A stretch of 64,000 bases of DNA. Origin: a virus. Positions 6,028 through 22,363 of the stretch are shown piece by piece (within the stretch, counting starts at the first letter, position 1; each line of letters starts with the position of its first letter). Location of the stretch: IMG/VR virus record IMGVR_UViG_3300045988_107973. One strand, given 5' to 3'. Made by a program: the position numbers and the translations under genes. The notes under the pieces are model-generated. The model ran no database searches. It was given only the letters and a program-made list of their open reading frames with translations, and was not told the origin of the DNA.

Positions 6028-6043
6028 AATCGAGGTTTTAGAT

Positions 6044-6507: not shown

Positions 6508-6536
6508 TAAAACAGTTCTTCTAAGGAGATAGTAAT

Positions 6537-6788
6537 ATGAATGAAAAGAGATTTGAAATTGACACGCCCATCGGAAAACTGGTTGCTGAAGCTGGTGGAG
6601 ATTATAAGGATTATCCAGGAATTTATATTTATCTTCAGAGAGAAGATGGCGTTCAAATTGATTTATCTTGTACGGAAATTGATAAAGAAACTGGCGAAGG
6701 CAGGGTCTTTATCTGGGGAAATACGTCTACGGATGAATACACTAGGATGATGCGCTGGACTAAAGAACAACTTATGATTAAAGAGTGA
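6537..6788 (+). CDS. hypothetical small protein
   Basis: ORF preceded by AAGGAG. Confidence 0.4.
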   Translation: MNEKRFEIDTPIGKLVAEAGGDYKDYPGIYIYLQREDGVQIDLSCTEIDKETGEGRVFIWGNTSTDEYTRMMRWTKEQLMIKE

Positions 6789-6807
6789 GCGGAGGGAGTA
6801 AAACAAA

Positions 6808-8109
6808 ATGACTACTAACAATTCTATGACTGTAATAACCTCTAAGCCATTCGGCGCACTGAATGTGGACGTGTACCAGAATGATAAACACCAGTATTAT
6901 ATGACCCGTGAACAGATTGGGCGAGCACTGGAATGTAAAGAACCTCGGAAGTACATTGCGAAGATTCATGAGCGTAATGCAGACCGTCTTGACCCGTTGA
7001 GCTCGGTCGTCAATTTGACGACTGAGGTCGGAAATTATACGCAAGAACGTCAAACATATATGTACAGTTTGCGTGGTGTTATGGAAATCTGTCGTTTGTC
7101 TCGTCAGCCGAAGGCGGATGCGTTTATGGATTTCTGCTGGGACATTATGGAATCTCTGATGCGTGGCGATTCCGTTCTGGCTACTCCTCAGATGGATGCT
7201 GCACTGAGTAAGGAGTTCATTGATGTAAGACTTCACGCTCTGTTTGATAGCATGAAGAACCTTCAGAGTGAACTTGATTCCACTCGCAAGGAGCTCGGTG
7301 ACCAGATTGAGGAAGCTCGTGCTACTAGCAACGAAGCACTGAATATAATCAGCAGCGTGTCTCAGTGTGTCCATCAGATTAAGGATAAGCAGATGGATAA
7401 TTCGATTCGTGCTAAGAGCTATACTCCTCGCAATGTGTTTCAGGATGAAATGAGTGACTGGCGTAAAGATTTGTATAGCAAGATTGGTGTGATTGCAAAT
7501 ACCAAAGGCTATACGAATAAGGAAACGCTTCACAAGATATATGAATATCTGAATCGTAATTATGGTTTCGTTTTGGAAGACGCTCGTGCGAAGTATGTTA
7601 AAAGAACGAATCGTAGTGGGAAAATCTCTACGATTGATATTATCGAAGAGGACTCCACTTGGAAATCCGTTATGGGTGCTGTTGTCGCAGATATGTACGC
7701 GGCATCTATTGAACGTCTGCATCAGAATCAGAATGAACTTCGTCTGACTCCAAAGGCTGTCGAAGCTGTTTCTGAAGTAAACGTGAGCGACGCTCCCGTG
7801 GTTGAGGTGGAAGCCAAGGAAGTTGTTAATGAGAAGCCTAAGAAGCAGAGTGAGACGGCAAAGATTCTTTTCCCAATTATGATGCCTCTGGCGGAAAACC
7901 TTGGTGATAGGCCGCAATACAAGCACACTTATACCCTAATCTATGAGTGTATTGGTTATAAGAAAATGAATAATTTGTTTATTGCTTACGAGAAGGCTCA
8001 TGGTAAAGCACCAAGTCCGAAAACAAAGGTGTTTATCGAAAACGAAAAGAATCTCGCACTGTTTAAAAAGGCTGTAAAGCAGCTGATGAAAGAACGGGAG
8101 AACAAGTAA
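6808..8109 (+). CDS. phage antirepressor-like protein (Bro-N/ORF6N-type N-terminal domain)
   Basis: N-terminal ~115 aa has the shape of Bro-N/ORF6N Ant domains (FGALNVDVY..MTREQIGRAL...YSLRGVMEICRLSRQPKADAFMDFCWDIM). RBS GGAGGGAG. The antisense 382-aa ORF is judged spurious. Confidence 0.5.
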   Translation: MTTNNSMTVITSKPFGALNVDVYQNDKHQYYMTREQIGRALECKEPRKYIAKIHERNADRLDPLSSVVNLTTEVGNYTQERQTYMYSLRGVMEICRLSRQPKADAFMDFCWDIMESLMRGDSVLATPQMDAALSKEFIDVRLHALFDSMKNLQSELDSTRKELGDQIEEARATSNEALNIISSVSQCVHQIKDKQMDNSIRAKSYTPRNVFQDEMSDWRKDLYSKIGVIANTKGYTNKETLHKIYEYLNRNYGFVLEDARAKYVKRTNRSGKISTIDIIEEDSTWKSVMGAVVADMYAASIERLHQNQNELRLTPKAVEAVSEVNVSDAPVVEVEAKEVVNEKPKKQSETAKILFPIMMPLAENLGDRPQYKHTYTLIYECIGYKKMNNLFIAYEKAHGKAPSPKTKVFIENEKNLALFKKAVKQLMKERENK

Positions 8110-8999: not shown

Positions 9000-9002
9000 A
9001 TT

Positions 9003-9227
9003 ATGATGGTATATGGAAACATAACGTGTAATCGCTGTGGCATTACATGGTATGGCCCTAAATGTGGAAAGCTCTATTGTGATAAATGTCGTAAGATAAT
9101 AAGAAATGAGGCATCCATTCGATGTAAGAACAAAAAGAAACATAAACCAACATTTGTTGAGATTGTAAGAATGGCAGATGCTGAAGGATTATCTTACGGT
9201 AAGTATTGTTTGAAGTATGGAGTTTGA
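9003..9227 (+). CDS. hypothetical zinc-ribbon protein
   Basis: Product contains CNRCG...CGKLYCDKC. Confidence 0.35.
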   Translation: MMVYGNITCNRCGITWYGPKCGKLYCDKCRKIIRNEASIRCKNKKKHKPTFVEIVRMADAEGLSYGKYCLKYGV

Positions 9228-9237
9228 GGTGAATGTG

Positions 9238-10086
9238 ATGAGTGCGCTTGAAAACGAAAAGAAAATCGAAAATACTGTTGCTCTTGATTTTTCTGACTAC
9301 GATTCTTCTAAAGAAGAAAGGCACCAGAAAGTAATCAAAAGGAATTATAACCTGACTCGGATGGAAGCGAATCATGGAACGGTTCAGCCGATTAAGGACA
9401 AAGAAGATATTAAACGTATTTCAGAATATTTCTGGATTAAACGTCAGTACCGCAACTGGTGTTTGTTTAATGTAGGATGTTGCACAGGATTCAGAGCAAG
9501 TGATTTGCTTCGTTTGAAGGTTTCTGATGTAGCAGCTACAGATATGAATGGAAAGGTTGTGGTGAATTTCAACGCAAAACTTCGTGTTAAGGAAAAGAAA
9601 ACAAATAAGTATCGCATTCTTAAAGTTCCGGTCCCGGCACTAAAGTGTATTCAAACTTATATCAATATTGATGGATTGTCTTATGACGATTGGCTCTTCC
9701 CGTCTCGGCAAGGCAGTTGGAAGAACTCCATGAGAACAAACGGTGGAACAAGCGTAAGTAAATCTGATGTGTTCCGTAAGTATGATGCAAATCCAAAAGA
9801 AATGGGCGATCCGCTTGATGTGGATTCTTTTGGTAGAATCATGCGTCAAGTTGGTAAGGAGCTAAATCTTCCTGTCCAGCTTGGTTCTCATAGCTGCCGC
9901 AAAACTTTCGGATATCAGTTTATTGCATCTCGTCCAAATGACATAAAAGCTCTTGCGTGGTTGCAGCATAGTCTAAATCACAGTAGTCAGGCAATTACGC
10001 TTCGCTATATTGGTCTGGATGAAGAAGTGGATGATGAATACTACTCTGGGATTGATTATGGCGTGGACTGCCATGAAAACTCTTGA
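9238..10086 (+). CDS. tyrosine recombinase (short phage-integrase family, ~283 aa)
   Basis: Catalytic-domain signatures GFRASDLLRLK, LGSHSCRKTFGY, ITLRYIG and HxxR...Y. ATG at 9238 after GAGGTG. Confidence 0.65.
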   Translation: MSALENEKKIENTVALDFSDYDSSKEERHQKVIKRNYNLTRMEANHGTVQPIKDKEDIKRISEYFWIKRQYRNWCLFNVGCCTGFRASDLLRLKVSDVAATDMNGKVVVNFNAKLRVKEKKTNKYRILKVPVPALKCIQTYINIDGLSYDDWLFPSRQGSWKNSMRTNGGTSVSKSDVFRKYDANPKEMGDPLDVDSFGRIMRQVGKELNLPVQLGSHSCRKTFGYQFIASRPNDIKALAWLQHSLNHSSQAITLRYIGLDEEVDDEYYSGIDYGVDCHENS

Positions 10087-10094
10087 GGTGTGTT

Positions 10095-10775
10095 ATGGCT
10101 GATACTTATATTAAAATCTGGGATACTTATGAGAGCTACTTTGAGCCCCTTAGTGCTGCTGAGGTGGGGCGTCTAGTACTGGCGATGATGAAATATAAAT
10201 CGTCTGGAATGGAGCCTGAACTCAACGGAAATGAGCGGTATGTGTGGCCTGCTGTAAAGAGAGATTTAATTAAAGATGCCGAATACATCGAAGGTAAGCG
10301 CATTTCTGGAAAAGCTGGCGGTGAAAGCAAGCGTAAGCAAAACGAAGCAAACGCAAGCAAGAGCAAGCTAGAAAAAGAAAAAGAGAAAGAAAAAGATAAG
10401 ATATCGTCTTCGTCTTATGAAGAGACGACAACGACGAAATCTATCGAGGATGTATTTCGAGAGAATATCGGGAAGCTCGGTGCCACAGGAAAGAAGGCTC
10501 TTGATGGATATGTTGAGCGCATGGGCGATGAACTTGTGCTTGCCGTGATTGGAAAGTGTTCTGATCTAGGTGGTAGTAAATGGGCTTATGTGCGAAAAGC
10601 TCTGGATGAAGCGGAATCTTTTGGTTGCAAGACTGCCGATGATTATCGCCGGGTGTGTCCGACTGGTTGTGGTCGCAATACAAGAGTGGATAGACAAGCT
10701 CCCAGTGGAAACGATTGGCTAAAAAACGCAACAAAACGTCGTCCGCTGGTTAAAAGAGAGCTGGAAACAGCATGA
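10095..10775 (+). CDS. DnaD-domain replication initiation / replisome-organizer-like protein
   Basis: C-terminus (ALDGYVERMGDELVLAVIGKC...WAYVRKALDEAESFG) resembles the DnaD/DnaB_2 domain. The N-terminus is replisome-organizer N-domain-like. Confidence 0.45.
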   Translation: MADTYIKIWDTYESYFEPLSAAEVGRLVLAMMKYKSSGMEPELNGNERYVWPAVKRDLIKDAEYIEGKRISGKAGGESKRKQNEANASKSKLEKEKEKEKDKISSSSYEETTTTKSIEDVFRENIGKLGATGKKALDGYVERMGDELVLAVIGKCSDLGGSKWAYVRKALDEAESFGCKTADDYRRVCPTGCGRNTRVDRQAPSGNDWLKNATKRRPLVKRELETA

Positions 10776-10790
10776 ATGGAGGTTTGAATT

Positions 10791-11192
10791 ATGGGGTTGT
10801 TACTTGGTTTGGGTTTGCTTGGAGCAGCGTTTGGTATTGATGCGGTAAAGCAAGCACCGTTCGATAGGGCATATCGCCGTTTGGAAAATGAATGGGGCAC
10901 TTGTACATCGGAAGAGAGTAAGCGGTGTGATGCTTTGAAGTATGCCGTGCAGAACGGTTTATGTTTTGAGAATGAAAAGAAGCCTGTGATTGAGTGGCAG
11001 AAGCTGAGAGATCTTCAGTGGAAGTATCAGCTGGCTGGCATCTCTTGGCCGAGAGAATCTGCGATTCGAGATGTGTGCCGTCTGGCAGCTCGTGATCGTG
11101 GATTTGAGTATAAGGGGTATCTGCGAAACACGTTGACGTTTGGTTATATCACTGATCCGAAAAACATTTGCAAGCTTGGTATTGTAGATTGA
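10791..11192 (+). CDS. hypothetical protein
   Basis: ORF preceded by GGAGG. Confidence 0.4.
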   Translation: MGLLLGLGLLGAAFGIDAVKQAPFDRAYRRLENEWGTCTSEESKRCDALKYAVQNGLCFENEKKPVIEWQKLRDLQWKYQLAGISWPRESAIRDVCRLAARDRGFEYKGYLRNTLTFGYITDPKNICKLGIVD

Positions 11193-11206
11193 AAGGGGAT
11201 TTGAAA

Positions 11207-11512
11207 ATGAATAATAATCGCAGAAAAGCTATTAAGCAGACCATTGATCGCTTTGATTTCATCCGTAAGAAGCTGGAAGAGCTTGTATCGGAGGTCGAAA
11301 GTGTAAAATCAGACGTCGAGAACATCCAGTGGGAAGAAGAAGAGTATCGTGACAACATGCCGGAGAATCTGCAGGGGGGTGAGCGGTATGATAAAGCAGA
11401 TGATGCTTGCACGAATTTGTCTGATGCTGTGGATGCTCTGGAGGATATGATTGGTGCTCTGGATTTTGACTTTGGTGATGTGACCACATCTCTGGAGGAA
11501 GCGATGGAATGA
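11207..11512 (+). CDS. hypothetical acidic coiled-coil protein
   Basis: ATG at 11207 after AAAGGGGA. Confidence 0.4.
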   Translation: MNNNRRKAIKQTIDRFDFIRKKLEELVSEVESVKSDVENIQWEEEEYRDNMPENLQGGERYDKADDACTNLSDAVDALEDMIGALDFDFGDVTTSLEEAME

Positions 11513-11697
11513 TTAACACAACAAACCCATTGAGGAGAAATGCATGGGCTGTGTTCTTGTATAGAGGTAGGCAAGTTTGTTCGTATCTTTTGCGTAATAG
11601 CAATCTTGGGGACAAGGAACGCATGGTAGAACTGCTGGCACGAAGGTACATGACAGAGCCAGAAAATATTGTTGTCGATATTGAATTTAGAGATTGA
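11509..11697 (+). CDS. hypothetical small protein
   Basis: ORF with ATGA overlap. Confidence 0.3.
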   Translation: MINTTNPLRRNAWAVFLYRGRQVCSYLLRNSNLGDKERMVELLARRYMTEPENIVVDIEFRD

Positions 11698-11798
11698 GGT
11701 GATAAAGAATGACCGCGTTTATGATATTTGCTTTGAATGTGGTGTTGATAATGGCAGTGAATAGTAATCCGTTTGCGTTTTGATTAAGAGGTGTGGAT

Positions 11799-11987
11799 AT
11801 GAGTATGTTGCAAGAAGAGTATAATTTGACGGATGAAGCACTTAAACAGTTGCTTTATGATATTCGACATCCGAGTATGGAAGCTGCTATACGTCGTGAA
11901 AAGATGTACAAAACATATTTATCGAATGTAGATGTTGAATATGATGGTGAATCAGAAGTGGTTGATTTTAAAGATTTAGATATTTGA
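11799..11987 (+). CDS. hypothetical small protein
   Basis: ATG at 11799 after AAGAGGTG. Confidence 0.35.
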   Translation: MSMLQEEYNLTDEALKQLLYDIRHPSMEAAIRREKMYKTYLSNVDVEYDGESEVVDFKDLDI

Positions 11988-12001
11988 CTGGAGGTGTAAA
12001 T

Positions 12002-12259
12002 ATGAATATTCTGAGTTTTAATGGAAATGAAAATCCAAAAGGGAGAGATGGTGATGCCGTTGTCAAGTTAAGTTATCAGGAACTGTTTAAGTTAAATAAT
12101 ATTTTGTATCACGCTCAAAAAGGCGGTGAGATAAAGGACGTAGTGGACTTTAATATTCGAAGGAATTTTTACATGGCGCTTAATTTGGTTCAATATGGTA
12201 GTCTGGATTCTGTTTCGCTAGAAATTATGTTAAAACTTTATGAAAACAATAAAACCTAA
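12002..12259 (+). CDS. hypothetical small protein
   Basis: ATG at 12002 after GGAGGTG. Confidence 0.35.
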   Translation: MNILSFNGNENPKGRDGDAVVKLSYQELFKLNNILYHAQKGGEIKDVVDFNIRRNFYMALNLVQYGSLDSVSLEIMLKLYENNKT

Positions 12260-12276
12260 ATTCTTTGAAAGGATAA

Positions 12277-12528
12277 ATGGGAATGGATAGTAAGAAAACA
12301 AAAGAACTGCGGGCTGGTGTTATGAAAGTTGTCAGCTGGTTGGATAATAATTGGCGTTGGATTCATACCAATGATTTTGGAAATGAAGAAAAGGCAATGG
12401 ATTCCGTTGAGATTTACCATACAGTCTTGAATACTGTTGAGATGCTTGGTGGTGATTGGCAGCGTGACGAGAATGGAAAGCATCGGGTGTTTATCGCCGG
12501 AGTTGGTGGAAAGGCAGAGACGGAGTAA
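12277..12528 (+). CDS. hypothetical small protein
   Basis: ORF preceded by AAAGGA. Confidence 0.4.
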   Translation: MGMDSKKTKELRAGVMKVVSWLDNNWRWIHTNDFGNEEKAMDSVEIYHTVLNTVEMLGGDWQRDENGKHRVFIAGVGGKAETE

Positions 12529-12633
12529 AATCCGGGTTCTTATGAGATTGCTGTAAAAAGCTTGACGATAACTGGTTATGCTGTTAAACTTTGCATAATC
12601 ACAGAATGCGCAAGCATGGAATGAGGTGGACTT

Positions 12634-12933
12634 ATGAATTTACAAGGACTTGAAAATAAAAAATGGGACTTTAATAAACAAGAGGAACTAGCTATCTCTT
12701 GGCTATTAAAACATGGCTTTGAGGTGAAATTGAAAAAACAGTATACATCAAAGGATATTTATACGGTAACAAAAGATGGTATTTTAGATGAATTTATCTT
12801 TCCGAATAACCAGAAGAACATGAACGTTCGGGCTTTTATGGAAAGATATGAGAAAAATTTTGAAACAAAGAAAGAACTCATAAAATTAAGAGCAGAGGCA
12901 TCGGCTAATGGTTTGATTAAAGAACGTAGTTGA
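12634..12933 (+). CDS. hypothetical protein
   Basis: ORF after GAGGTGGA. A TTGACG-N17-TAAACT promoter-like sequence lies at about 12566-12600. Confidence 0.4.
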   Translation: MNLQGLENKKWDFNKQEELAISWLLKHGFEVKLKKQYTSKDIYTVTKDGILDEFIFPNNQKNMNVRAFMERYEKNFETKKELIKLRAEASANGLIKERS

Positions 12934-12966
12934 TGTGATAAAAGTTAAGATTTAGGAGGATGTGTT

Positions 12967-13140
12967 ATGGAAGATAATACGAAGGAATTTGCAAGAGCTA
13001 TTGATACTGTAAATAAATTTTTGGATTGTGGAGCAATTGTTTTTGTCAAAGTAAAAGGAAATGAAAAATTGGTAAGACTTGAACAGATTGATATGTGTGC
13101 GCCATTATCATGCCGTTTTAAAAATTCTGATAAGAGCTGA
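12967..13140 (+). CDS. hypothetical small protein (58 aa; below the ORF-track cutoff)
   Basis: ATG after the conserved AGATTTAGGAGG leader shared with the next four genes. Confidence 0.3.
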   Translation: MEDNTKEFARAIDTVNKFLDCGAIVFVKVKGNEKLVRLEQIDMCAPLSCRFKNSDKS

Positions 13141-13159
13141 GATTTAAGGAGATTGTAGG

Positions 13160-13435
13160 ATGGTTAAATTGAATAAGTGCCCATTTTGTGGGCATGAAGC
13201 GATTTCCATTAGTGTGTACGATGTTGACGAAAAGTGGAAAGGTTCGCTCGGATGTGATTTTGAGAAAGACCCGGATTACGGTATGGCATTGTATGCCTTA
13301 CATCACGAAGAATGGATGAGCTGCATTCTTCGCTGTGATGACCAAGAAGAAGCACTTGGCGGGTTGTTTTTCAATTCTGCTAAAGAGGCTGAAAAGTATT
13401 GGAATGAAAAGACTGCAATGCTTGACAAAAGCTGA
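13160..13435 (+). CDS. Lar-family restriction alleviation-like protein, copy 1
   Basis: N-terminus LNKCPFCGHEA matches the Lar-family signature K/xPCPFCG. Confidence 0.5.
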   Translation: MVKLNKCPFCGHEAISISVYDVDEKWKGSLGCDFEKDPDYGMALYALHHEEWMSCILRCDDQEEALGGLFFNSAKEAEKYWNEKTAMLDKS

Positions 13436-13454
13436 GATTTAGGGAGACATAGTT

Positions 13455-13685
13455 ATGAGTGAATATAAATTAAAGCCGTGTCCTTTTTGTGGTGGAGAAG
13501 TTACCGTTGCAGAGGGCAGTTATCGCCAAACACGATGGATGTATGTTACGAGAGGAAACAAAGAAAATAGGTGCAACTGCCATGTTTTCATGGAAAGCAA
13601 AACTTACTACTTTGATTCCTCTGAAAAAGACAAGGAAAGAATCAAAGCCGACCTTATCGAAGCGTGGAATAAGCGAGTCGAATAA
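13455..13685 (+). CDS. Lar-family restriction alleviation-like protein, copy 2
   Basis: N-terminus MSEYKLKPCPFCGGEV is the canonical Lar-like start. Confidence 0.55.
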   Translation: MSEYKLKPCPFCGGEVTVAEGSYRQTRWMYVTRGNKENRCNCHVFMESKTYYFDSSEKDKERIKADLIEAWNKRVE

Positions 13686-13712
13686 AAACTAAGATTTAAG
13701 GAGAGATACATT

Positions 13713-13910
13713 ATGAAAAAATTCGTTGCTCTTTTTGAAGGTTGGAACGATAAGCATGACCATGAGTGTATGTGCTATGTTGTTGATGTAGATGATGACT
13801 TTGAAAGTATTTTGAGTATTGAAGAACAGGCAGAAAAGATGGCTCGAAGCGAATATCCTAATCTGAAAAATTTTGAGACGCTTTACATCAAAGAACTGCT
13901 TAACAGATAA
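13713..13910 (+). CDS. hypothetical small protein
   Basis: ORF after the conserved AGATTTAAGGAG leader. Confidence 0.35.
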   Translation: MKKFVALFEGWNDKHDHECMCYVVDVDDDFESILSIEEQAEKMARSEYPNLKNFETLYIKELLNR

Positions 13911-13936
13911 GAATTAAGATTTAGGAGGAAATAGTT

Positions 13937-14713
13937 ATGCCGAGAAGGAAAACAGTAGAAGCACTGCAATTAACGCCGAAAGAAATAGCTCGGAAGTCGC
14001 CTACTTTTATGGAGCTTCCTGAGATGGTAAGCCGTGCTGGTGAGCCTACATACTATTATGATGTGGGAGATGCTGTAGAGATTGGTCATCTTAGCGGATG
14101 CAAGATTGATGAAGTCTGCGACGGTGGTTTATATTACGGTGTTTCTTACGATGATGGATATAGGTACGAAACGTGGTTTAACATTCGTAAAGCAGGTGTT
14201 GAGAAGAAATCTCAACTGACAGAGAATGAAGATATTAAGATTTCTTACTCAAACGTGACCATTGAATCCTTGCTCCACAGGTATTACTTTTTTGGCATCA
14301 ACTGCAATCCGAGTTATCAACGCGGATCTGTGTGGACGGATGATGACCGTGAACTGCTTTTTGAGACAATTTTTATGGGTGGTGAAATCGGTCGATTTGT
14401 TCTAAAAAACATTGACATGGACGAATGGCATGAAAATCAGAACTACCTTTATGAAATCATTGACGGTAAGCAGAGACTTCTGACACTTGCTGCGTTCTAC
14501 GAAGATCGGTTCCGTTATAAAGGATATCTGTACAGTGAACTCTCTAAGAAGGATAAGAGAACCTTTGATGAGACTGCAATTGCTATCGCGGATTTGCGGA
14601 ATCTTTCTAAGAAGGATACGTTGCGTGTGTTCTTGCTTCTGAATCGTGGTGGCAAGGTCGTTTCCAATGCTGTGCTTGACCATGCAAAAGAGCTTCTGAA
14701 CGAAATGGAGTGA
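13937..14713 (+). CDS. DUF262 (ParB/Srx-like, GmrSD N-domain-type) protein
   Basis: Product contains NPSYQRGSVW...LLFETIFMGGEIGRFVL...YEIIDGKQRLLTL, the DUF262 signature (DGQQR-type). Confidence 0.6.
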   Translation: MPRRKTVEALQLTPKEIARKSPTFMELPEMVSRAGEPTYYYDVGDAVEIGHLSGCKIDEVCDGGLYYGVSYDDGYRYETWFNIRKAGVEKKSQLTENEDIKISYSNVTIESLLHRYYFFGINCNPSYQRGSVWTDDDRELLFETIFMGGEIGRFVLKNIDMDEWHENQNYLYEIIDGKQRLLTLAAFYEDRFRYKGYLYSELSKKDKRTFDETAIAIADLRNLSKKDTLRVFLLLNRGGKVVSNAVLDHAKELLNEME

Positions 14714-14719
14714 GTGAAT

Positions 14720-14875
14720 ATGAGTAGTGTACTTATTTATCGAAAAGTAGCTAAGAAGGTGGAGTTTATCTTCGAGCATCCTGGTAAGGTCTATTCGGTG
14801 TATTTGAAGGCTGGCGGAGATGTCGTTTGGCTGCAAAGTGAAATTGAACTGTATGAATTTTTGCGCAGCTTATAA
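14720..14875 (+). CDS. hypothetical small protein (51 aa)
   Basis: ATG after GGAGTGAG. Not in the ORF track because it is under 60 aa. Confidence 0.25.
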   Translation: MSSVLIYRKVAKKVEFIFEHPGKVYSVYLKAGGDVVWLQSEIELYEFLRSL

Positions 14876-14896
14876 AACCAATATTTTTGAAGGGAA

Positions 14897-15523
14897 GTGA
14901 TTTTTATTAACTCTAATTTGTTAATAAATCGTGAGCAAAGTGTTGCCATCGTGTGTATAATGTGCTTGCTGGCAGGGAATCTGGTATCGAAGATCAGCCC
15001 GGTAATTCAAAATCAGAGCAATTCGTACCTTTATAATAGTAGTCCTCCGGCAGTAAGTGTTGTGCAGCAAGAGGAAAAGGAACCAGAAGTCATCGTAAAA
15101 ACTGTTATCGAGACGCGTGTGGTAAACTTCAGTCAGGGAAAGCGCGAACTCACTAATGATGAGCGTGCTCTTGCGGAGCAGATCGTTGCTTGTGAAGCAG
15201 GTGCTGATAGCCTAGAAGGTCAGATGGCTGTGGCTCAATGTCTTTATGATTCTGCTGTACTTGATGGTCTAACCATCCAGCAGGTCTTTAAGAAGTATGG
15301 TTATAGTTCCTTATATAATAGGAAGGTGACGGCAGAGAACGAATTGGCTGTGTCTATGGTGTTTGATTACGGCGCTAAAATTTCAAACAAACCAATTCAA
15401 TGGTTTGTGACCCCGGCGGCAGCTTCCGGCAGTTGGCACGAGCGCGGAGCAACGTTCGCTGGACAATTTGGCGCACATAGGTTCTATTACAACGCGGAAC
15501 TGGTTGTGGATGATGCCGAGTGA
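14897..15523 (+). CDS. SleB/Hydrolase_2-like cell wall hydrolase with N-terminal hydrophobic anchor
   Basis: Product contains ERALAEQIVACEAGADSLEGQMAVAQCLYDS, the SleB-type signature, with a TM-like N-terminus. The start codon is uncertain (GTG 14897 or ATG 14960). Confidence 0.5.
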   Translation: MIFINSNLLINREQSVAIVCIMCLLAGNLVSKISPVIQNQSNSYLYNSSPPAVSVVQQEEKEPEVIVKTVIETRVVNFSQGKRELTNDERALAEQIVACEAGADSLEGQMAVAQCLYDSAVLDGLTIQQVFKKYGYSSLYNRKVTAENELAVSMVFDYGAKISNKPIQWFVTPAAASGSWHERGATFAGQFGAHRFYYNAELVVDDAE

Positions 15524-15577
15524 ATGGCATCATCTAAAATTTTAAACTTTTACAACAACAAAAAGATGTATAATATA

Positions 15578-15605
15578 TTGACCAAAACAAAAAGATGTGT
15601 ATAAT
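15578..15605 (+). promoter_or_regulatory. sigma70-like promoter (TTGACC-N16-TGTGTATAAT) within a duplicated 20-bp element
   Basis: TTGACC 15578-83 and TATAAT 15600-05 with a TGn extended -10. The element aaaaagatgt(g)tataatata occurs twice, at about 15559-15580 and 15586-15608. Confidence 0.45.
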
Positions 15606-15647
15606 ATATCTTGAAAGTTGTCTAAATGAGTGGAGGGCGGTGTTTTA

Positions 15648-15974
15648 ATGCGTGAGAGAAATGTTCTGAAGGTCATACGAGTTGATGACTTTTTAAAGTA
15701 CATAAGAAAAAAGAGAGTGTGGGTTTGTTTTATTTGCAATGGTGTAGATGTTCACATGGTCTGTAACAAAATGAACGATGTTGGAGCAGAGACACATGGG
15801 ATCGTTAAAGGCATTGGCTTCTTCGGAAACGAAAGTCATATTGAGCTGCGGCAAGAATGCCACGAAGTAAGGAGGATTGAGCTTAGACCGGGCGATAAAG
15901 AGAAAGCGTATGAGATGATCTTCGATAACACAAGCGTGTTCGTATCAGAGAACCCCGAGTTGTACGGGCACTAA
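15648..15974 (+). CDS. hypothetical protein
   Basis: ATG at 15648 after GGAGGG. Lies downstream of the tandem promoter element. Confidence 0.35.
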   Translation: MRERNVLKVIRVDDFLKYIRKKRVWVCFICNGVDVHMVCNKMNDVGAETHGIVKGIGFFGNESHIELRQECHEVRRIELRPGDKEKAYEMIFDNTSVFVSENPELYGH

Positions 15975-15992
15975 AAATATTTAAAAAACCTC

Positions 15993-16021
15993 TTGACTTC
16001 TGCAAGGGTATCCTGTATAAT
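15993..16021 (+). promoter_or_regulatory. strong sigma70-like promoter (TTGACT-N17-TATAAT) containing an inverted GTATCCTGT motif
   Basis: TTGACT 15993-98, 17-nt spacer, TATAAT 16016-21. GTATCCTGT lies inside the spacer. Confidence 0.55.
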
Positions 16022-16064
16022 ATAGCTATGGAACGGAGCTACACTATTATAGAGGAGAAAGACT

Positions 16065-16484
16065 ATGGATAGTAATATTGACCCAAAGGTCGGAGAGGTT
16101 TGGTTGGTTGATCTATCCAATGCGACAGGTCACCAGCAGCGCGGTATTCGACCGTTTGTTGTGACGAGCAACAACAAGCGCAACTTCTTCAGTCCCACAA
16201 TCAAAGGGAATCCGTTGTCTTCCAGAATATACAAGCGTTCTCCGGTTCATGTCCTGCTCTCAAAGGAAGATTGCGATTTTCTGGATGTTGACAGTATCGT
16301 TCTTTGTGAAGAGACCGATACACTTAACAAAGGACAGTTCATCAAGAAACTTGGTGTCTTATCGGAGCGTCAGATGAATATGATCGCAATGGCAAGATGC
16401 AAGGATGAACCGTTCTTACTCGCAGCATTCCTGAGCGGCGTACAACATACTATGGAATTTCAGAATTTTGCCGCATTTGCTTGA
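16065..16484 (+). CDS. MazF/PemK-family toxin-like endoribonuclease homolog (solo)
   Basis: N-terminus VGEVWLVDLSNATGHQQRGIRPFVVTS fits the MazF/PemK consensus (G-x-[IV]-x-x-V-D-[FL]...G-x-E-Q-x-G-x-RP-x-VV[VI]S). C-terminus is extended to 139 aa. RBS GAGGAG. Confidence 0.55.
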   Translation: MDSNIDPKVGEVWLVDLSNATGHQQRGIRPFVVTSNNKRNFFSPTIKGNPLSSRIYKRSPVHVLLSKEDCDFLDVDSIVLCEETDTLNKGQFIKKLGVLSERQMNMIAMARCKDEPFLLAAFLSGVQHTMEFQNFAAFA

Positions 16485-16537
16485 TTTTTTATAAGGGTTA
16501 ATGGTACACTACATATAATAAGAAGGAGTGTGCCACT

Positions 16538-17464
16538 ATGCTTACTGAAGAGAAAATCAACGCTTTTGCCGAAAAGTATTCTGATAGAAGCGGTGAGTTT
16601 GTTATATCGACACTTAACCATGTTATGGATTACGAGGCCGAGCGTGGGTATGAGTTGTTTGACTTCACAAAAGATGATTTTGTAAAGATGTTTGCCAAAT
16701 ACAATTGGGTGAATTCAAGTCGGTCGTTCAGAAATGTAAAGTCAATAATTACAGGTTACATCAAAAGTGAGTATCGAGCGAGCATGTATGACTTAGCTGA
16801 ATTCTCGGAGAGCGACGTGAGTTCAGACAATATGTACGAGGACAAGTATTTTGCGTCAGCTGATGAGTTTGTTGATTTCTTGGACAAGTATGAAGAACCA
16901 TATCAGATTCGTATGAACGTGATTGCCGTGCTGTACTGGATTGGTCTTACTTCCGAAGAGGTTTCTAATCTGACAATTAACGATGTTGATTTTGAATCAT
17001 GTACTGTTCTGAATAAGACCGGTGTTGACGCGAGATTGATGAATATCATTAAGCAGTGTTATGAAATGAAACAATACGATGCTCCAAATATGGGAGGATA
17101 CAGAACGTTTTATGTCATAAATGGTGATTACATTCTTCGCAAAACAGAGGATAGAACTGGTGCAGACAGTGACTCAAGAATGTCTACAAATACGATTCAT
17201 AGTTATTTCACGCGCTTGAATGATATTCTCGAAAGAAGATATCATTCAAAGGCTTTAGACCGAAGACATCTGACCAGAAACGGCGAGTATGTCAAGGTTT
17301 ATAACTACTGTAAAACTCATCCAGAATTTAATCTTGCAGAACTTAGTTTCGGAAATGGTAAAGATCCTCTTGCGGACATTATCGGAAGAAAGTGCAGCAA
17401 GGTTGCCTACATTAGTTTCCGGCAAGGATACAAGGGCTGGATCGAATACTTCCACAAAAATTAA
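16538..17464 (+). CDS. hypothetical protein with a degenerate tyrosine-recombinase-like central segment
   Basis: IRMNVIAVLYWIGLTSEEVSNLTINDVDF resembles the start of an integrase catalytic domain, but the catalytic Arg is replaced by Thr. Downstream motifs are unclear. Confidence 0.4.
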   Translation: MLTEEKINAFAEKYSDRSGEFVISTLNHVMDYEAERGYELFDFTKDDFVKMFAKYNWVNSSRSFRNVKSIITGYIKSEYRASMYDLAEFSESDVSSDNMYEDKYFASADEFVDFLDKYEEPYQIRMNVIAVLYWIGLTSEEVSNLTINDVDFESCTVLNKTGVDARLMNIIKQCYEMKQYDAPNMGGYRTFYVINGDYILRKTEDRTGADSDSRMSTNTIHSYFTRLNDILERRYHSKALDRRHLTRNGEYVKVYNYCKTHPEFNLAELSFGNGKDPLADIIGRKCSKVAYISFRQGYKGWIEYFHKN

Positions 17465-20086: not shown

Positions 20087-22297
20087 ATGAGAACTTTGCT
20101 TCTTTTCCGTGGAGCACCCGGATGCGGGAAGTCCACCTATATTAAAGAGCATGATCTGGAAAAGTATACGCTTAGTGCAGATACGATTCGCCTTATGTGT
20201 CAGGGTGGTCAGGAAACCCCGGCTGGCACAATGGAAATCTCTCCCCAGAACGATGATGTTGTCTGGGATATGCTCTTTAAGCTGTTGGAGGTTCGGATGT
20301 CTCACGGTGAATTTACCGTGATTGATGCAACGAATTCCAAGACGGTCGAAATGAATCGTTATAAGAATCTTGCAAAACAGTATCGTTATCGGATGTATGT
20401 TATTAACATGACGGACCTTCCGATCGAGGAATGCAAACGAAGAAACGCTCAGAGAGAATGGCTGAAGCGAGTTCCTGAAGCGGCTATTGATAAGATGTAC
20501 GCTCGGTTTGCTACTCAAAAAGTTCCTTCTGGCGTGACAGTTCTTCCTTCTACTACGGATGTGATGTCCGATTTGAACTACTGTCCGAATGACTTCAACC
20601 AGTGGAAGAAGATTCATGTCATCGGTGATGTTCATGGCTGTTATACTTGTTTAAGTGAATACCTTGGTGAGATGAAGGACGATGAACTTTATATCTTCGT
20701 TGGTGATTATCTCGATCGTGGCATTGAAAACGTTGAGGTATTCAAGTTCTTGTGTGATGTTGTAAATAACAACCGCAAGAATGTGATCCTTTTGGAAGGG
20801 AATCACGAGCGTTGGCTGAACAAGTGGGGGCATGATGAACCGGTTCAGAGTGAAGAGTTTGCAAACTACACTCGTCCGCAGCTCTTTAAAGCCGGTATTG
20901 ACAAGAACACTGCTCGTAAAATCTATTCCAGAGTTGGCCAATGTGCCTACTTTGAGTATGATGGGAAGCGGTACTTCGTGAGCCACGGTGGTTTGAGTTA
21001 TCTGCCTTATTTTCTTCCTTTTGTATCTGCTGACCAGATGATTAAAGGTGTAGGTCGCTATCCTGATATGCTAACCGTGGCTGAGTCTTGGGAAAAATCG
21101 ATGCCGGATAGCTACATTCAGATCTTCGGTCATCGAAATGTGCAGGATGTTCCTATTGATATGGGGCATCGGTGCTACAACCTCGAAGGAAAAATCGAGT
21201 TTGGTGGATATCTCCGTTGCGTGGAACTTGAACACGGTCAGTCAATCAAATGTGTAGAAACAAAGAACGATGTGTTCCGAAAAGAGGAGCCAAAGACTGA
21301 AACTGCCGTTGAAATGAAAACTGAGTTCGATAACGCAGAACTTGTCAGTAAGATGCGTCAAAGCAAATATGTGTTTGAGAAGCGATTCGGAGATATTTCT
21401 TCTTTCAACTTCTCTCGTGAAGCATTTTATAAGAAGCACTGGGATGAGGTTTCTACCAAAGCAAGGGGGCTGTTCATTAACACAAAGACGAATAAGATTG
21501 TAGCTCGAAGCTATGATAAGTTCTTTGCGGTCGATGAGCGGAATGAAACGAGAATTGGAAACCTACAGAACACTTTGAAGTTCCCGGTGACTGCATATCT
21601 GAAGGAAAACGGATTTCTTGGCATTGTCTCGTATGATGCAGAACAGGATGGTCTGTTCATTGCAAGTAAATCCACTCCTGAAGGGCCTTTTGCAGATATG
21701 TTCCGAAAGATTCTCATGGATACGACTTCCGATGAAGACCGTAAGAATCTGAAGGAAGTTGCAAAAGAGAATGGTTCAGTCATTTTTGAAGTGATTGATC
21801 CTGTAAATGACCCGCATATCATCGAATACATGACACCATATATTGTTTTGCTGGATATTGTTGCGAATGATATGAACTTCAGTGTGATGGATTACGATGA
21901 TCTGAAGCGTGTTGCTGAAAAGTGTCATTTGCAGATTAAGGAGAAGGTTAAGATCTTTGAGAGCTGGAGTGAATTCTATCCTTGGTATGAAGAAGTCATG
22001 AATGAGAATTATCTGTACCGTGGCATCGAGCATATTGAAGGCTTTGTTTTGAGAGATAACAACAATTTTATGTTTAAGCTGAAGCTTCCTTATTATAAGC
22101 ACTGGAAGTTCTTGCGTGGTGTTATGCAGAGCGTCCAGAAGCGTGGCTATTACGAAAATACCGCAAAGTTGTTTACTGCTGAGGATAACCTGTTCTATGG
22201 TTGGATGCGTGAGCAACGAGAGAAAGACCAGGAATCTTTCTGCAAGAAGGGTATTATTCAGTTACGGAATGAATTCTATGAGAATCGGCACGAATAA
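20087..22297 (+). CDS. Pnkp-like polynucleotide kinase-phosphatase with C-terminal ligase-like region (RNA repair enzyme)
   Basis: N-terminal P-loop LLFRGAPGCGKST (kinase). Central calcineurin-like phosphoesterase motifs GDVHGC, GDYLDRG, GNHE, GHR. About 330 further C-terminal residues contain a KENG candidate adenylyltransferase motif I. The domain order matches bacterial Pnkp. Confidence 0.6.
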   Translation: MRTLLLFRGAPGCGKSTYIKEHDLEKYTLSADTIRLMCQGGQETPAGTMEISPQNDDVVWDMLFKLLEVRMSHGEFTVIDATNSKTVEMNRYKNLAKQYRYRMYVINMTDLPIEECKRRNAQREWLKRVPEAAIDKMYARFATQKVPSGVTVLPSTTDVMSDLNYCPNDFNQWKKIHVIGDVHGCYTCLSEYLGEMKDDELYIFVGDYLDRGIENVEVFKFLCDVVNNNRKNVILLEGNHERWLNKWGHDEPVQSEEFANYTRPQLFKAGIDKNTARKIYSRVGQCAYFEYDGKRYFVSHGGLSYLPYFLPFVSADQMIKGVGRYPDMLTVAESWEKSMPDSYIQIFGHRNVQDVPIDMGHRCYNLEGKIEFGGYLRCVELEHGQSIKCVETKNDVFRKEEPKTETAVEMKTEFDNAELVSKMRQSKYVFEKRFGDISSFNFSREAFYKKHWDEVSTKARGLFINTKTNKIVARSYDKFFAVDERNETRIGNLQNTLKFPVTAYLKENGFLGIVSYDAEQDGLFIASKSTPEGPFADMFRKILMDTTSDEDRKNLKEVAKENGSVIFEVIDPVNDPHIIEYMTPYIVLLDIVANDMNFSVMDYDDLKRVAEKCHLQIKEKVKIFESWSEFYPWYEEVMNENYLYRGIEHIEGFVLRDNNNFMFKLKLPYYKHWKFLRGVMQSVQKRGYYENTAKLFTAEDNLFYGWMREQREKDQESFCKKGIIQLRNEFYENRHE

Positions 22298-22363
22298 CTA
22301 AGATATTTTCTTCCTCCGAAAATGCCCTGCGCGGGGCTGACAGCCGGGAAAGACCGGCAATAT

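What the first reader, a model, noticed from the sequence alone, without database searches (positions are those of the whole stretch)
12940..14875. Anti-restriction-like islet: two tandem Lar-family paralogs plus a standalone DUF262 (ParB/GmrSD-N-like) protein, each small gene preceded by the same ~15-nt leader
13160..13435 and 13455..13685 both begin with the Lar restriction-alleviation signature ((K)CPFCG / KLKPCPFCGGE) and have since diverged. 13937..14713 carries the DUF262 signature (NPSYQRGSVW...IIDGKQRLLTL), the nuclease/NTP-binding N-domain of GmrSD-type type IV restriction enzymes. Here it stands alone without the DUF1524 HNH half, as in some phage anti-defence or DNA-modification-sensing proteins. 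Five consecutive genes (12967, 13160, 13455, 13713, 13937) share the leader (A/G)AGATTTA(A/G)GGAG just before the start codon. This suggests serial duplication of a gene-plus-leader cassette or a shared translational control element.
Basis: partly seen in the sequence, partly recalled or inferred. Interest (0 to 1): 0.6.

Follow-up and report, generated by a model that had tools for sequence, protein, structure and literature searches.

The report
Shared linker joins swappable phage genes
The repeated "leader" is a roughly 25-base adaptor (stop codons in all three frames plus a ribosome-binding site) that joins small, swappable accessory genes in an uncultured gut phage and also in an unrelated phage-plasmid, so it marks a gene-exchange hotspot and is not the trace of gene duplication.

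Summary
AGATTTA(N0-1)GGAG occurs five times in 64 kb, always 8-10 nt before the start codons at 12967, 13160, 13455, 13713 and 13937 (0.09 expected).

The conserved unit is longer than reported, about 25 nt: YYGATAAAAGYTRAGATTTA(R)GGAGR. It has stop codons in all three frames, then an A/U-rich spacer and a strong Shine-Dalgarno sequence.

Comparison with 152 related metagenomic loci changes the interpretation:
- The islet lies in a hypervariable array between conserved blocks of a roughly 130 kb uncultured Firmicute-type phage.
- The same linker precedes at least 41-48 unrelated small-gene families.
- 33 of 36 homology breakpoints fall inside linkers.
- Whole cassettes, including the Lar-like 13160 gene and the 13713-14713 module, recur linker-to-linker in an unrelated phage-plasmid-like backbone of about 58 kb.

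This is a PeSL-like shuffling junction, but without a promoter or stem-loop.

On the proteins:
- 13455-13685 is a Pfam Lar member.
- 13160-13435 is a divergent Lar-superfamily branch, not a recent paralog.
- 13937-14713 is a Tudor-like domain plus a minimal DUF262 core with all three motifs. It has no DNA-binding or nuclease half, and no DUF1524 was found in the proteins scanned.

Anti-restriction function remains an inference from homology.

The parts
12246..12276 (+). Diverged linker variant (AATAAAACCTAAATTCTTTGAAAGG) before the cassette starting at 12277. It is the left-hand relative of the junction family.
   Evidence: The same variant precedes families F13/F16/F18/F86 in related loci, and homology breaks at 12268-12294.
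12936..12966 (+). Linker copy 1 (subtype AAAGTTAAG). Core AGATTTAGGAG lies at 12948-12958. TGA/TAA/TAG stops in three frames, then the Shine-Dalgarno sequence.
   Evidence: Breakpoints at 12936/12938.
12967..13140 (+). Cassette gene F25, 57 aa, with no family match. It ends ...DKS*, a tail encoded by linker 2.
   Evidence: Present in 10 linker-preceded sites. Too few variants to test whether it is coding.
13127..13159 (+). Linker copy 2 (subtype AAGAGCTGAG). Core at 13140-13151.
   Evidence: Breakpoints at 13127-13152.
13160..13435 (+). Cassette gene F30, 91 aa: a divergent Lar-superfamily zinc ribbon (CPFCG...C32...C55/C59...YWNEK). It is a mobile 315-bp cassette.
   Evidence: Pfam Lar 16.3 bits, below the gathering score. 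Its own family has 65 representative clusters, and 16 of 46 members hit the Lar model. hhalign to the Lar family gives 95.6% probability over 24 columns. The cassette recurs with ends at 13127-30 and 13438-46 in 14 loci on two backbones.
13422..13454 (+). Linker copy 3 (GACAAAAGCTGAGATTTAGGGAG). Core at 13435-13446.
   Evidence: Breakpoints at 13441-13458.
13455..13685 (+). Cassette gene F37, 76 aa: a Lar-family zinc ribbon (C9, C12, C40, C42; EAWNKR tail).
   Evidence: Pfam PF14354 at 39.0 bits, above the gathering score of 28.6. NCBIfam anti_R_Lar at 33.9 bits, below its 39.6 cutoff. 39 of its 43 listed homologs carry PF14354. Invariant Cys/W/N/R columns.
13680..13712 (+). Linker copy 4 (subtype AAAAACTAAG). 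Core at 13692-13703.
   Evidence: Breakpoints at 13681/13682/13702/13708.
13713..13910 (+). Cassette gene F11, 65 aa, with no family match. It often, but not always, sits immediately upstream of the DUF262 gene.
   Evidence: Coding-type substitutions at codon positions 1/2/3 of 132/78/301. It moves with F0 into the phage-plasmid-like backbone.
13905..13936 (+). Linker copy 5. Core at 13917-13927.
   Evidence: Breakpoints at 13906/13907/13920.
13937..14713 (+). F0, 258 aa: an N-terminal helices plus Tudor/SH3-like barrel (residues ~40-95), followed by a minimal ParB-type DUF262 NTP-binding core (residues ~105-258). Motifs I QRxxxW, II DGKQR and III FxxxN are all present. There is no ParBDB DNA-binding domain and no DUF1524. 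It is the conserved right-hand anchor of the array.
14714..14875 (+). F1, 51-53 aa, whose start overlaps the F0 stop (GGAGTGAGTGAATATG). It is usually linked to F0, and other genes are inserted between them in some relatives.
   Evidence: Substitutions at codon positions 1/2/3 of 73/62/139.
14876..14896 (+). Diverged junction (TTATAAAACCAATATTTTTGAAGGGAA) at the right edge. It is the site of insertions in relatives.
   Evidence: (breaks at 14869-14888).
11698..12933 (+). Left part of the same hypervariable array: cassettes 11799-11987, 12002-12259, 12277-12528 and 12634-12933. They are joined by other conserved junction types, not the AGATTTA linker.

Best explanation
The five 'leaders' are copies of a ~25-nt inter-cassette linker with consensus YYGATAAAAGYTRAGATTTA(R)GGAGR followed by 7-9 nt and then ATG.

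What the linker does at the RNA level: it closes whatever reading frame arrives from upstream, because it has stop codons in all three frames. It then presents an unstructured A/U-rich stretch and a strong Shine-Dalgarno sequence to restart translation of the next small gene. A string of promoterless genes can therefore be expressed from one transcript regardless of which genes are neighbours.

What the linker does at the DNA level: it is the only sequence shared by otherwise unrelated cassettes. Recombination between linker copies inserts, deletes, reorders and exchanges cassettes. The likely mechanism is short-homology recombination or annealing by phage recombination functions during replication or co-infection.

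The window shows one state of such an array. It lies in a ~130 kb uncultured phage between a conserved upstream block and a conserved DUF262 gene. The same linker and some of the same cassettes occur in an unrelated ~58 kb phage-plasmid-like element, so the adaptor links the accessory-gene pools of different mobile elements.

The cargo here is two independently acquired Lar-superfamily zinc-ribbon genes (probably anti-type-I-restriction, by homology only), three ORFans, and a Tudor-like plus minimal ParB/DUF262 NTP-binding protein. That last protein is not a restriction enzyme and its role is unknown.

Shown: the motif, its distribution, the three-frame stops and their use, the breakpoint positions, cassette sharing across backbones, and the domain assignments.

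Inferred: the recombination mechanism, co-transcription, the effect on translation, and all protein functions.
For: Motif:
- 5 of 5 copies lie in the islet against 0.09 expected, and it is absent from the other ~110 gene starts.

Variability:
- In 27 loci whose DUF262 gene is 88-100% identical at the protein level (93% or more for all full-length matches), gene content between the conserved blocks differs, with more than 40 small-ORF families in the variable stretch.
- The two Lar-like genes are in reverse order in L005.

Breakpoints:
- 33 of 36 BLAST endpoints in 12900-14000 (14 of 17 distinct coordinates) fall in linkers that cover 14.7% of the span, p about 1e-9.

Spread:
- In 596 Gb of bacterial genomes there were only 83 singleton hits. 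This is roughly the ~69 I estimate from pattern degeneracy and collection size, and none is homologous to these elements.
- The relaxed motif gave 316 sites. 284 are followed by an ORF, and these fall into 41 unrelated families with a median length of 67 aa.
- There are 190 distinct junctions and 156 different upstream/downstream pairings. 30 of 48 downstream families have two or more different upstream neighbours, up to 11.

Linker properties:
- Stops at offsets +9, -1/+2 and +16 are used by 154, 111 and 27 upstream ORFs, so all three frames are used.
- 10 of 41 cassette families end D[KR][SN]*, a tail encoded by the linker.
- The Shine-Dalgarno-proximal half co-varies with the downstream gene (mutual information 4.11 vs 3.02 shuffled) but not with the upstream gene (3.49 vs 3.34).

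Cross-backbone sharing:
- Of 119 linker loci, 42 are phage-type, 63 are of the ~58 kb type and 14 are neither.
- The ~58 kb type has Rep3, ParA and an RHH protein, plus a GH25 lysin, a collagen fibre protein and Bro/ANT.
- The F30 cassette recurs with ends at 13127-30 and 13438-46 at 86-96% identity on both backbones. The F11-F0 module recurs at ~91% identity with breaks at 13708 and 14714.

Expression context:
- No sigma-70-like promoter or terminator lies in the linkers, the RNA is unstructured, and there is no Rfam match.

Recombination genes:
- The phage encodes a Sak4-like/AAA_24 annealing-type protein and a RecJ-like exonuclease.

Precedent:
- PeSL-mediated modular shuffling in T4-type phages (PMC2839356, PMC4122927).
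Against: - No recombination event was observed directly. Breakpoints necessarily fall between genes when whole genes differ, so part of the clustering is expected.
- 18-25 nt with polymorphisms is short for RecA-type recombination.
- All comparators are metagenome-assembled contigs, most from one IMG data set (3300045988). Assembly chimeras at repeats cannot be fully excluded. However, the repeat is shorter than usual assembler k-mers, the same arrangements recur in independent contigs, and hits come from several other samples.
- Only stretches of up to ~15 kb around each hit were available, so the genome-wide distribution of the linker is unknown.
- Conservation of the AGATTTA core beyond what a ribosome-binding site needs might reflect a trans-acting factor that I could not identify.
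Confidence: 0.66

Rival explanations
1. The linker is primarily a cis-acting post-transcriptional control element. It would be an operator for a phage translational repressor or a cleavage site for a phage endoribonuclease, as RegA and RegB act on T4 early mRNAs (recalled from memory, not checked here). It would be conserved because all these early accessory genes are co-regulated. Recombination at it would be incidental.
For: The AGATTTA core and the stretch 5' of it are conserved beyond what Shine-Dalgarno pairing needs. The motif always sits at a fixed distance from start codons. It is restricted to one class of small genes in the window. There is no promoter or terminator in it.
Against: No RegA-, RegB- or other RNA-binding regulator was recognised among the 38 window proteins scanned. 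There is no RNA structure or Rfam family. The same motif is kept on an unrelated phage-plasmid-like backbone that would need the same regulator. This idea does not by itself explain the cassette-exact homology ends. It is compatible with the best explanation as a second role.
Confidence: 0.2
2. The array is an integron-like platform. A site-specific recombinase, for example the tyrosine recombinase at 9217-10086 about 1.6 kb upstream of the variable region, would recognise the linker as its recombination site and capture or excise cassettes.
For: A tyrosine-recombinase-like gene (phrog_216, E 1e-39) is conserved next to the array in the phage-type loci. The cassettes are promoterless, have one orientation and are bounded by a repeated site.
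Against: The recombinase is absent from every phage-plasmid-type locus that carries linker arrays, within the ~5-15 kb available. The linker has no inverted-repeat core (only TAAA..TTTA) and no hairpin potential like attC. Linker subtypes follow slot order, and their two halves segregate with different neighbours, as expected for homology-driven exchange.
Confidence: 0.07
3. One reading: the leaders are similar because one gene-plus-leader unit was serially duplicated in this genome and the copies then diverged.
For: Two adjacent genes share a CPFCG start and a WN(E/K)(K/R) tail. Five identical-looking leaders occur in a row.
Against: The five downstream proteins share no detectable similarity except the 14-24-column zinc knuckle of the two Lar-like proteins. 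Linker subtypes are conserved by position across genomes and are not most similar within a genome. The same linker precedes 41-48 unrelated families. The Lar-like genes occur singly, or in reverse order, elsewhere.
Confidence: 0.03
4. There is nothing special here: the similarity is just convergent, strong Gram-positive ribosome-binding sites in an A/T-rich intergenic context.
For: All genes in the window have GGAG-type Shine-Dalgarno sequences.
Against: There are 0.09 expected against 5 observed copies of the 11-12-mer. The conserved stretch reaches 12 nt 5' of the Shine-Dalgarno sequence. The exact 18-mer occurs at chance level in 596 Gb of genomes but is clustered in two families of mobile elements.
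Confidence: 0.02

Closest known systems
PeSLs (promoter-early stem-loops) of hyperplastic regions in T4-type phages (Arbiol et al. 2010, PMC2839356; Comeau et al. 2014, PMC4122927)
   Same: Both are short conserved intergenic motifs that run from the upstream stop codon to the downstream Shine-Dalgarno sequence and start codon. Both are concentrated in hypervariable regions full of small ORFans of large lytic phages. Both act as the points where unrelated genes are inserted, deleted or replaced between close relatives.
   Different: PeSLs are about 60-100 nt composite elements with a sigma-70 promoter and a terminator-like stem-loop, so each ORFan is its own transcription unit. This linker is ~25 nt with no promoter, no terminator and no structure. 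It has three-frame stops plus a ribosome-binding site, implying polycistronic expression. It occurs in a Firmicute-type phage lineage and is shared with an unrelated phage-plasmid-like replicon.
Integron gene cassettes (attC sites plus IntI)
   Same: Both are arrays of promoterless, same-orientation, mostly small genes of unknown or adaptive function. Each cassette is bounded by a repeated site, and arrays differ between close relatives and are shared among replicons.
   Different: Here there are no attC-like hairpins, no co-occurring integrase on one of the two backbones, and the repeat also supplies stop codons and the ribosome-binding site.
Lar (Rac prophage restriction-alleviation protein; Pfam PF14354 / TIGR03655)
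   Same: 13455-13685 has the family's CxxC...CxC zinc ribbon and AWNxR tail and passes the Pfam gathering score. 13160-13435 shares the N-terminal knuckle and the WN tail.
   Different: Only Rac Lar itself has been tested for alleviating EcoKI restriction (my recollection of King & Murray 1995, not checked here). 13455-13685 is below the NCBIfam cutoff. 13160-13435 is below both cutoffs and carries a ~35-residue insert with its own conserved motif. No solved structure exists for the family.
DUF262/ParB-type sensor domains of GmrSD/BrxU, SspE, DndB and NsnA (Menshen)
   Different: The protein stops 22 residues after motif III, so it has no ParBDB DNA-binding domain, no DUF1524/HNH and no NsnB/NsnC neighbours. 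Instead it has an N-terminal Tudor/SH3-like barrel. It is encoded by phages and a phage-plasmid-like element, not by host defence islands.

Membership tests
PeSL-type shuffling junction (T4-type hyperplastic regions) | Conserved intergenic motif repeated between unrelated small genes in a hypervariable region | tested here: met
PeSL-type shuffling junction (T4-type hyperplastic regions) | Indel and replacement breakpoints between close relatives map to the motif | tested here: met
   33 of 36 endpoints fall in linkers. Cassette-exact ends.
PeSL-type shuffling junction (T4-type hyperplastic regions) | Contains a sigma-70-type early promoter | tested here: not met
   No promoter-like site overlaps any linker. 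25 nt is too short for -35 and -10 elements.
PeSL-type shuffling junction (T4-type hyperplastic regions) | Contains a stable stem-loop (terminator or attenuator) | tested here: not met
   MFE of -2 to -6 kcal/mol and z-scores of -1.5 to +1.2. No terminator-like site in the linkers.
Integron cassette array | attC-like imperfect inverted repeats that fold as hairpins | tested here: not met
   Only a 4-bp TAAA/TTTA dyad is visible in the sequence.
Integron cassette array | Adjacent integron-type tyrosine recombinase wherever arrays occur | tested here: not met
   The recombinase is found only in phage-type loci, not in the 63 phage-plasmid-type loci within the sequence available.
Lar restriction-alleviation family (PF14354), for 13455-13685 | Score above the Pfam gathering threshold, with a four-Cys zinc ribbon and a WNxR tail | tested here: met
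   39.0 bits vs 28.6. Invariant C9, C12, C40, C42, W71, N72 and R74. 39 of 43 listed homologs carry PF14354. It is below the NCBIfam cutoff, 33.9 vs 39.6 bits.
Lar restriction-alleviation family (PF14354), for 13160-13435 | Score above the Pfam gathering threshold | tested here: not met
   16.3 bits vs 28.6 and 18.7 vs 39.6 for NCBIfam. Only 16 of 46 family representatives hit Lar at E<=0.01. hhalign gives 95.6% probability but over 24 columns only. This indicates superfamily-level relatedness only.
Lar restriction-alleviation family | Alleviates type I restriction or enhances modification in vivo | not testable with these tools
   Needs plating assays on hosts that carry type I R-M systems.
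DUF262 / ParB-DUF262 domain (PF03235) | Motifs I QRxxxW, II DGxQR and III FxxxN on a ParB/Srx-like fold | tested here: met
GmrSD-type type IV restriction enzyme | DUF1524 (His-Me/HNH) nuclease domain, fused or encoded adjacently | tested here: not met
   The protein ends at residue 258. None of the 120 listed homologs has PF07510. There is no such neighbour in three distant contexts. None of the 38 window proteins scanned has it. The rest of the ~130 kb genome was not visible.
Menshen NsnA | ParBDB helical DNA-binding domain after DUF262, with NsnB ATPase and NsnC effector genes downstream | tested here: not met
   The model has only ~22 residues after motif III. The downstream genes are a 53-aa ORF and a 208-aa protein that matched no confident family: best Pfam E 0.0067, below cutoff, and an unknown-function PHROG.
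ParB partition / CTPase clamp | HTH DNA-binding domain, C-terminal dimerisation domain and a parS site | tested here: not met
   There is no HTH in the model. The phage-plasmid backbone already has ParA plus an RHH protein.

The most novel reading that the evidence does not exclude
The ~25-nt linker is a dedicated 'universal adaptor': three-frame stops, a translational restart signal and a recombination handle in one unit. It would work as a recombinase-independent analogue of an integron attC site, letting promoterless accessory and anti-defence genes flow between unrelated co-resident mobile elements (a large lytic-type phage and a phage-plasmid) while staying expressed wherever they land.

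A bolder version is that the conserved ParB-like DUF262 protein at the 3' end of many arrays takes part in nicking or pairing linkers. The evidence does not exclude this. It is weakened by arrays that lack the gene within the sequence available.
Probability: 0.35. Interest if true: 0.75.

Novelty: new variant of a known kind. Interest (0 to 1): 0.58.

Why it matters
Where phages acquire and how they exchange small accessory genes, including anti-defence genes, is an open practical question. Documented sequence-level mechanisms are few, and PeSLs in T4-type phages are the main example.

This case offers a minimal and easily searchable junction in an uncultured gut Firmicute phage lineage. It combines expression signals with a recombination handle, and it connects the gene pools of a lytic-type phage and a phage-plasmid.

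If confirmed, the junction would help in three ways:
- It gives a simple computational handle for harvesting cassette cargo, a catalogue of candidate anti-defence genes. The pool already includes Lar-like proteins, an NAMPT enzyme and an RlaP nucleotidyltransferase.
- It gives a natural design for frame-independent polycistronic junctions.
- It singles out a widespread, uncharacterised viral family (Tudor-like plus minimal DUF262) as a candidate for functional testing.

Tried and rejected
- DNA search of the islet against 50,697 cultured phage records found no match. The phage has no close cultured relative, with Pol III alpha at most 34% identical.
- Host identification failed. The linker scan of 185,579 species genomes returned only chance singletons, none homologous.
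- Rfam at a permissive threshold found nothing.
- The promoter and terminator scan placed no promoter- or terminator-like site in any linker. The one terminator-like hit in the islet (13342-13359) lies inside the 13160-13435 coding sequence.
- RNA folding of the five junctions showed no structure.
- The integron-like idea was rejected because the recombinase does not co-occur with the arrays and there are no attC-like hairpins.
- Serial duplication was rejected.
- The radical-SAM fusion partners of two DUF262 homologs are NrdG, not QueE. The 7-deazaguanine modification idea was therefore dropped. The fusion may only reflect gene adjacency.
- The conserved-partner idea for the DUF262 gene did not hold. 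Contexts of distant homologs differ (a Dam methylase in one, nothing recognisable in the others), and F11 is absent from many loci.
- The AFDB50 fold library was unavailable.
- An apparent 284-aa N-terminally extended DUF262 form in L009 and L010 was an artefact of my ORF caller.
- PADLOC gave no hits for the small proteins.
- There is no solved structure for Lar-like proteins.


Full report
**1. What is in the sequence**

The region 12940-14875 holds six same-strand ORFs:
- 12967-13140 (57 aa)
- 13160-13435 (91 aa)
- 13455-13685 (76 aa)
- 13713-13910 (65 aa)
- 13937-14713 (258 aa)
- 14714-14875 (53 aa), whose start overlaps the previous stop

The motif AGATTTA(N0-1)GGAG occurs exactly five times in the 64-kb window. 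All five copies lie here, 8-10 nt upstream of the first five start codons. The expectation is 0.09, and none of 100 shuffles reached five. A stricter 12-mer finds only three, because two copies lack one base. Listing the 30 nt upstream of about 116 ORFs shows that every gene has a GGAG-type Shine-Dalgarno sequence but only these five carry the AGATTTA prefix.

Aligned, the junctions read (T/C)(T/C)GA(T/C)AA(A/G)A(G/A)(C/T)T(G/A)AGATTTA(A/G)GGAG(A/G), then 7-9 nt, then ATG. They include the stop codon of the preceding gene. Two preceding ORFs end in ...DKS* for that reason.

**2. Genomic setting**

The window is one-directional and encodes the following:
- a Pol III alpha-type DNA polymerase, a RecD2-like helicase and a DNA ligase
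- a RecJ-like exonuclease and an AAA_24/Sak4-like protein
- anaerobic NrdD, ThyX and FolD
- a Pnkp/RNA-ligase fusion next to eight tRNA genes
- at least two DNA methyltransferases

It is identical to an 82-kb IMG/VR contig (L001). It belongs to a group of 80-135 kb viral contigs with no close cultured relative. It is therefore a large, uncultured phage. The ribosome-binding-site style and the best polymerase matches suggest a Firmicute host.

**3. The islet is part of a hypervariable array**

Twenty-seven loci carry a relative of the 258-aa protein, at 93-100% identity for every full-length match. Gene content between a conserved upstream block (window ~10095-11697) and this gene differs from contig to contig. 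More than 40 small-ORF families appear in different combinations, and in L005 the two CPFCG genes are in the opposite order.

In these loci the same junction sequence precedes many unrelated families. BLAST of window 9000-17000 against the loci shows that homology stops and starts at the junctions. Of 36 alignment endpoints between 12900 and 14000, 33 lie in the five linker intervals, which make up 14.7% of that span. Counting distinct coordinates gives 14 of 17, binomial p about 1e-9.

**4. The linker is widespread in two unrelated backbones and at chance level elsewhere**

The same scan of 596 Gb of bacterial and archaeal genomes gave 83 singleton hits scattered over all phyla. That is roughly the ~69 I estimate from the pattern's degeneracy and the collection size, and none is homologous to the window or the viral loci.

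With a relaxed pattern there are 316 sites in 153 sequences. Of these, 284 are followed within a few bases by an ORF of at least 30 aa, and the ORFs fall into 41 unrelated families with a median of 67 aa. At positions the pattern did not impose, base -1 is G in 85% of 189 distinct contexts and +17 to +22 are purine-rich. Conservation vanishes outside roughly -3 to +23.

Of 119 new loci, 42 resemble the window, 63 resemble a second backbone and 14 resemble neither. The second backbone comes from contigs of about 55-60 kb. It encodes a Rep3 initiator, a ParA ATPase and an RHH protein, together with a GH25 lysin, a collagen-repeat fibre protein, a 1361-aa protein and a Bro/ANT antirepressor. It is therefore phage-plasmid-like. 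Its linker array sits directly after the rep-par genes.

**5. Cassettes move as units**

The 13160-13435 gene recurs in 14 loci with homology ending at 13127-13130 and 13438-13446, a 315-bp linker-to-linker unit. Identity is 86-96%, including on the phage-plasmid-like backbone. The 13713-14713 module recurs there at about 91% identity with breaks at 13708 and 14714.

Over all loci there are 190 distinct junctions, 68 upstream families, 48 downstream families and 156 different pairings. Thirty of the 48 downstream families have two or more different upstream neighbours, up to 11. The Shine-Dalgarno-proximal half of the linker co-varies with the downstream gene (mutual information 4.11 vs 3.02 when shuffled) but not with the upstream gene (3.49 vs 3.34). 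The polymorphic 5' half (AGTTA, AGCTG, AACTA, ACCTA) follows a slot order along the array. The region of exchange is therefore the shared core.

**6. What the linker provides**

It contains stop codons in all three frames: TGA/TAA, then TGA or TAA, then TAA or TAG. All three are used by real upstream ORFs, at 154, 111 and 27 sites. Ten of 41 cassette families end in D(K/R)(S/N)*, a tail the linker encodes.

The linker has no sigma-70-like promoter and no terminator, no RNA structure (MFE -2 to -6 kcal/mol, z about 0) and no Rfam match. It is followed by a strong Shine-Dalgarno sequence.

I infer that the cassettes are promoterless and co-transcribed, and that the linker serves as a frame-independent stop-and-restart junction. 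The nearest promoter-like sites are at 12562-12590 upstream and at 15578 and 15993 downstream.

**7. Mechanism and rivals**

The best-supported reading is a PeSL-like shuffling junction. In T4-type phages, conserved intergenic promoter/stem-loop cassettes in hyperplastic regions mediate insertion, deletion and replacement of ORFans by recombination between copies (PMC2839356, PMC4122927). Here the junction is much shorter and lacks both promoter and stem-loop, so it is a variant of that kind and not a member.

The recombination step is inferred. The phage encodes plausible short-homology recombination functions, a Sak4-like/AAA_24 protein and a RecJ-like exonuclease.

An integron-like, recombinase-driven mechanism is unlikely. 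The neighbouring tyrosine recombinase (9217-10086) is absent from the phage-plasmid-type loci, and the linker has no attC-like dyad or hairpin.

A role as a regulatory operator or RNase site cannot be excluded and would be compatible with the main reading. No candidate regulator was found.

Serial duplication and chance are rejected.

Caveat: all comparators are metagenome assemblies, most from one data set. However, the same arrangements recur in independent contigs, hits come from other samples as well, and the repeat is shorter than typical assembler k-mers.

**8. The proteins**

*13455-13685.* This is a Lar-family zinc ribbon.
- It scores 39.0 bits on Pfam PF14354, above the gathering score of 28.6.
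- 39 of its 43 listed homologs carry PF14354.
- C9, C12, C40, C42, W71, N72 and R74 are invariant.
- It is below the NCBIfam cutoff.

*13160-13435.* This gene is below both cutoffs.
- Its word-indexed homologs are all close relatives.
- An exhaustive profile search finds a family of its own, with 65 representative clusters of mostly 90-140 aa and a distinctive conserved insert.
- Sixteen of 46 members touch the Lar model.
- hhalign to the Lar family gives 95.6% probability, but only over the N-terminal knuckle and first strand, 24 columns.
- The two genes are therefore superfamily relatives acquired as separate cassettes, not local paralogs.
- Anti-restriction activity is inferred from the name-giving Rac Lar only (my recollection, not tested here).

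*13937-14713.* This protein belongs to a large family of standalone proteins, mostly about 250-280 aa, on big contigs. Of the 120 homologs listed, 116 carry PF03235, none carries DUF1524, a few are longer, and two are fused to NrdG.
- All three DUF262 motifs defined in PMC12065111 are present and invariant or nearly so.
- The chain ends 22 residues after motif III. It therefore lacks the ParBDB DNA-binding domain and any effector.
- The best defence-model hit is NsnA, but there are no NsnB or NsnC neighbours.
- Similar standalone viral DUF262 proteins exist but are uncharacterised.
- No DUF1524/HNH partner was found among 38 window proteins or in three distant contexts.

The function of this protein is unknown. 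My preferred guess is an NTP-gated binding switch used by mobile elements, possibly interfering with DUF262-based host sensors. This is speculation.

**9. Verdict**

The main result is a minimal junction combining stops in three frames with a ribosome-binding site. It marks exchangeable gene cassettes and is shared by a large phage lineage and a phage-plasmid-like lineage. I rate it a new variant of a known kind, of moderate to good interest.

Noticed in passing
window 15648-16484: A MazF/PemK-type toxin gene (16065-16484, Pfam E 3e-19) sits behind a near-consensus promoter at 15993-16021. The preceding 108-aa ORF (15648-15974) also follows a near-consensus promoter (15578-15605) and could be its antitoxin. 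A phage-borne MazF pair in a lytic-looking genome is unusual.
   Followed up: partly
window 20087-23702: A polynucleotide kinase-phosphatase/RNA-ligase fusion (736 aa) lies shortly upstream of a cluster of eight tRNA genes: Leu x3, Pro, Gln, Gly x2 and Met. It looks like a tRNA-repair and supply module against anticodon nucleases.
   Followed up: partly
window 9217-10086 and 16538-17464: There are two tyrosine-recombinase-like genes (the first at phrog_216 E 1e-39, the second only a weak MrpR_N match) in a genome that otherwise looks lytic. The first is conserved beside the variable array in phage-type loci only.
   Followed up: partly
window 12249-12264, 14876-14896, 61643-61658: Diverged relatives of the linker (ATAAAACCTAAATTCT, ATAAAACCAATATTTT, ATAAAACTTGAATTCT) lie before the genes at 12277, 14897 and 61676 (FolD). 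The junction family is therefore broader than the AGATTTA form.
   Followed up: partly
window ~11765-11792 and equivalent positions in L002-L025: A different conserved junction, GTGAATAGTAATCCGTTTGCGTTTTGA, marks the left edge of the variable region. It precedes several unrelated families (F15, F46, F64, F78).
   Followed up: no
L028/L029 (Logan SRR21280403/SRR21280395 contigs), 3486-7305: A phage-like contig encodes SecY, SecG-like and SecE-like proteins next to a DUF262 protein fused to an NrdG activase (434 aa). Both the Sec genes in a virus-like context and the DUF262-NrdG fusion are unexplained.
   Followed up: no
L071 1888-3366; family F21 (e.g. L007 5966-6718): Larger cargo also sits behind related junctions. 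In L071 a 492-aa NAMPT/NAPRTase (an NAD salvage enzyme) follows the AGATTTA linker. In L007 a 250-aa RlaP-type nucleotidyltransferase follows a diverged variant of the linker. The cassette pool may be enriched in counter-defence functions.
   Followed up: partly
window 47386-48909 and 51240-52091: Two SPFH/flotillin-family genes flank the anaerobic ribonucleotide reductase gene nrdD (48922-51117).
   Followed up: no
L030-L032 5095-6813: In a distant relative, the DUF262-family gene directly follows a Dam-type (MethyltransfD12) methyltransferase. This echoes the known association between ParB-like domains and methyltransferases.
   Followed up: no
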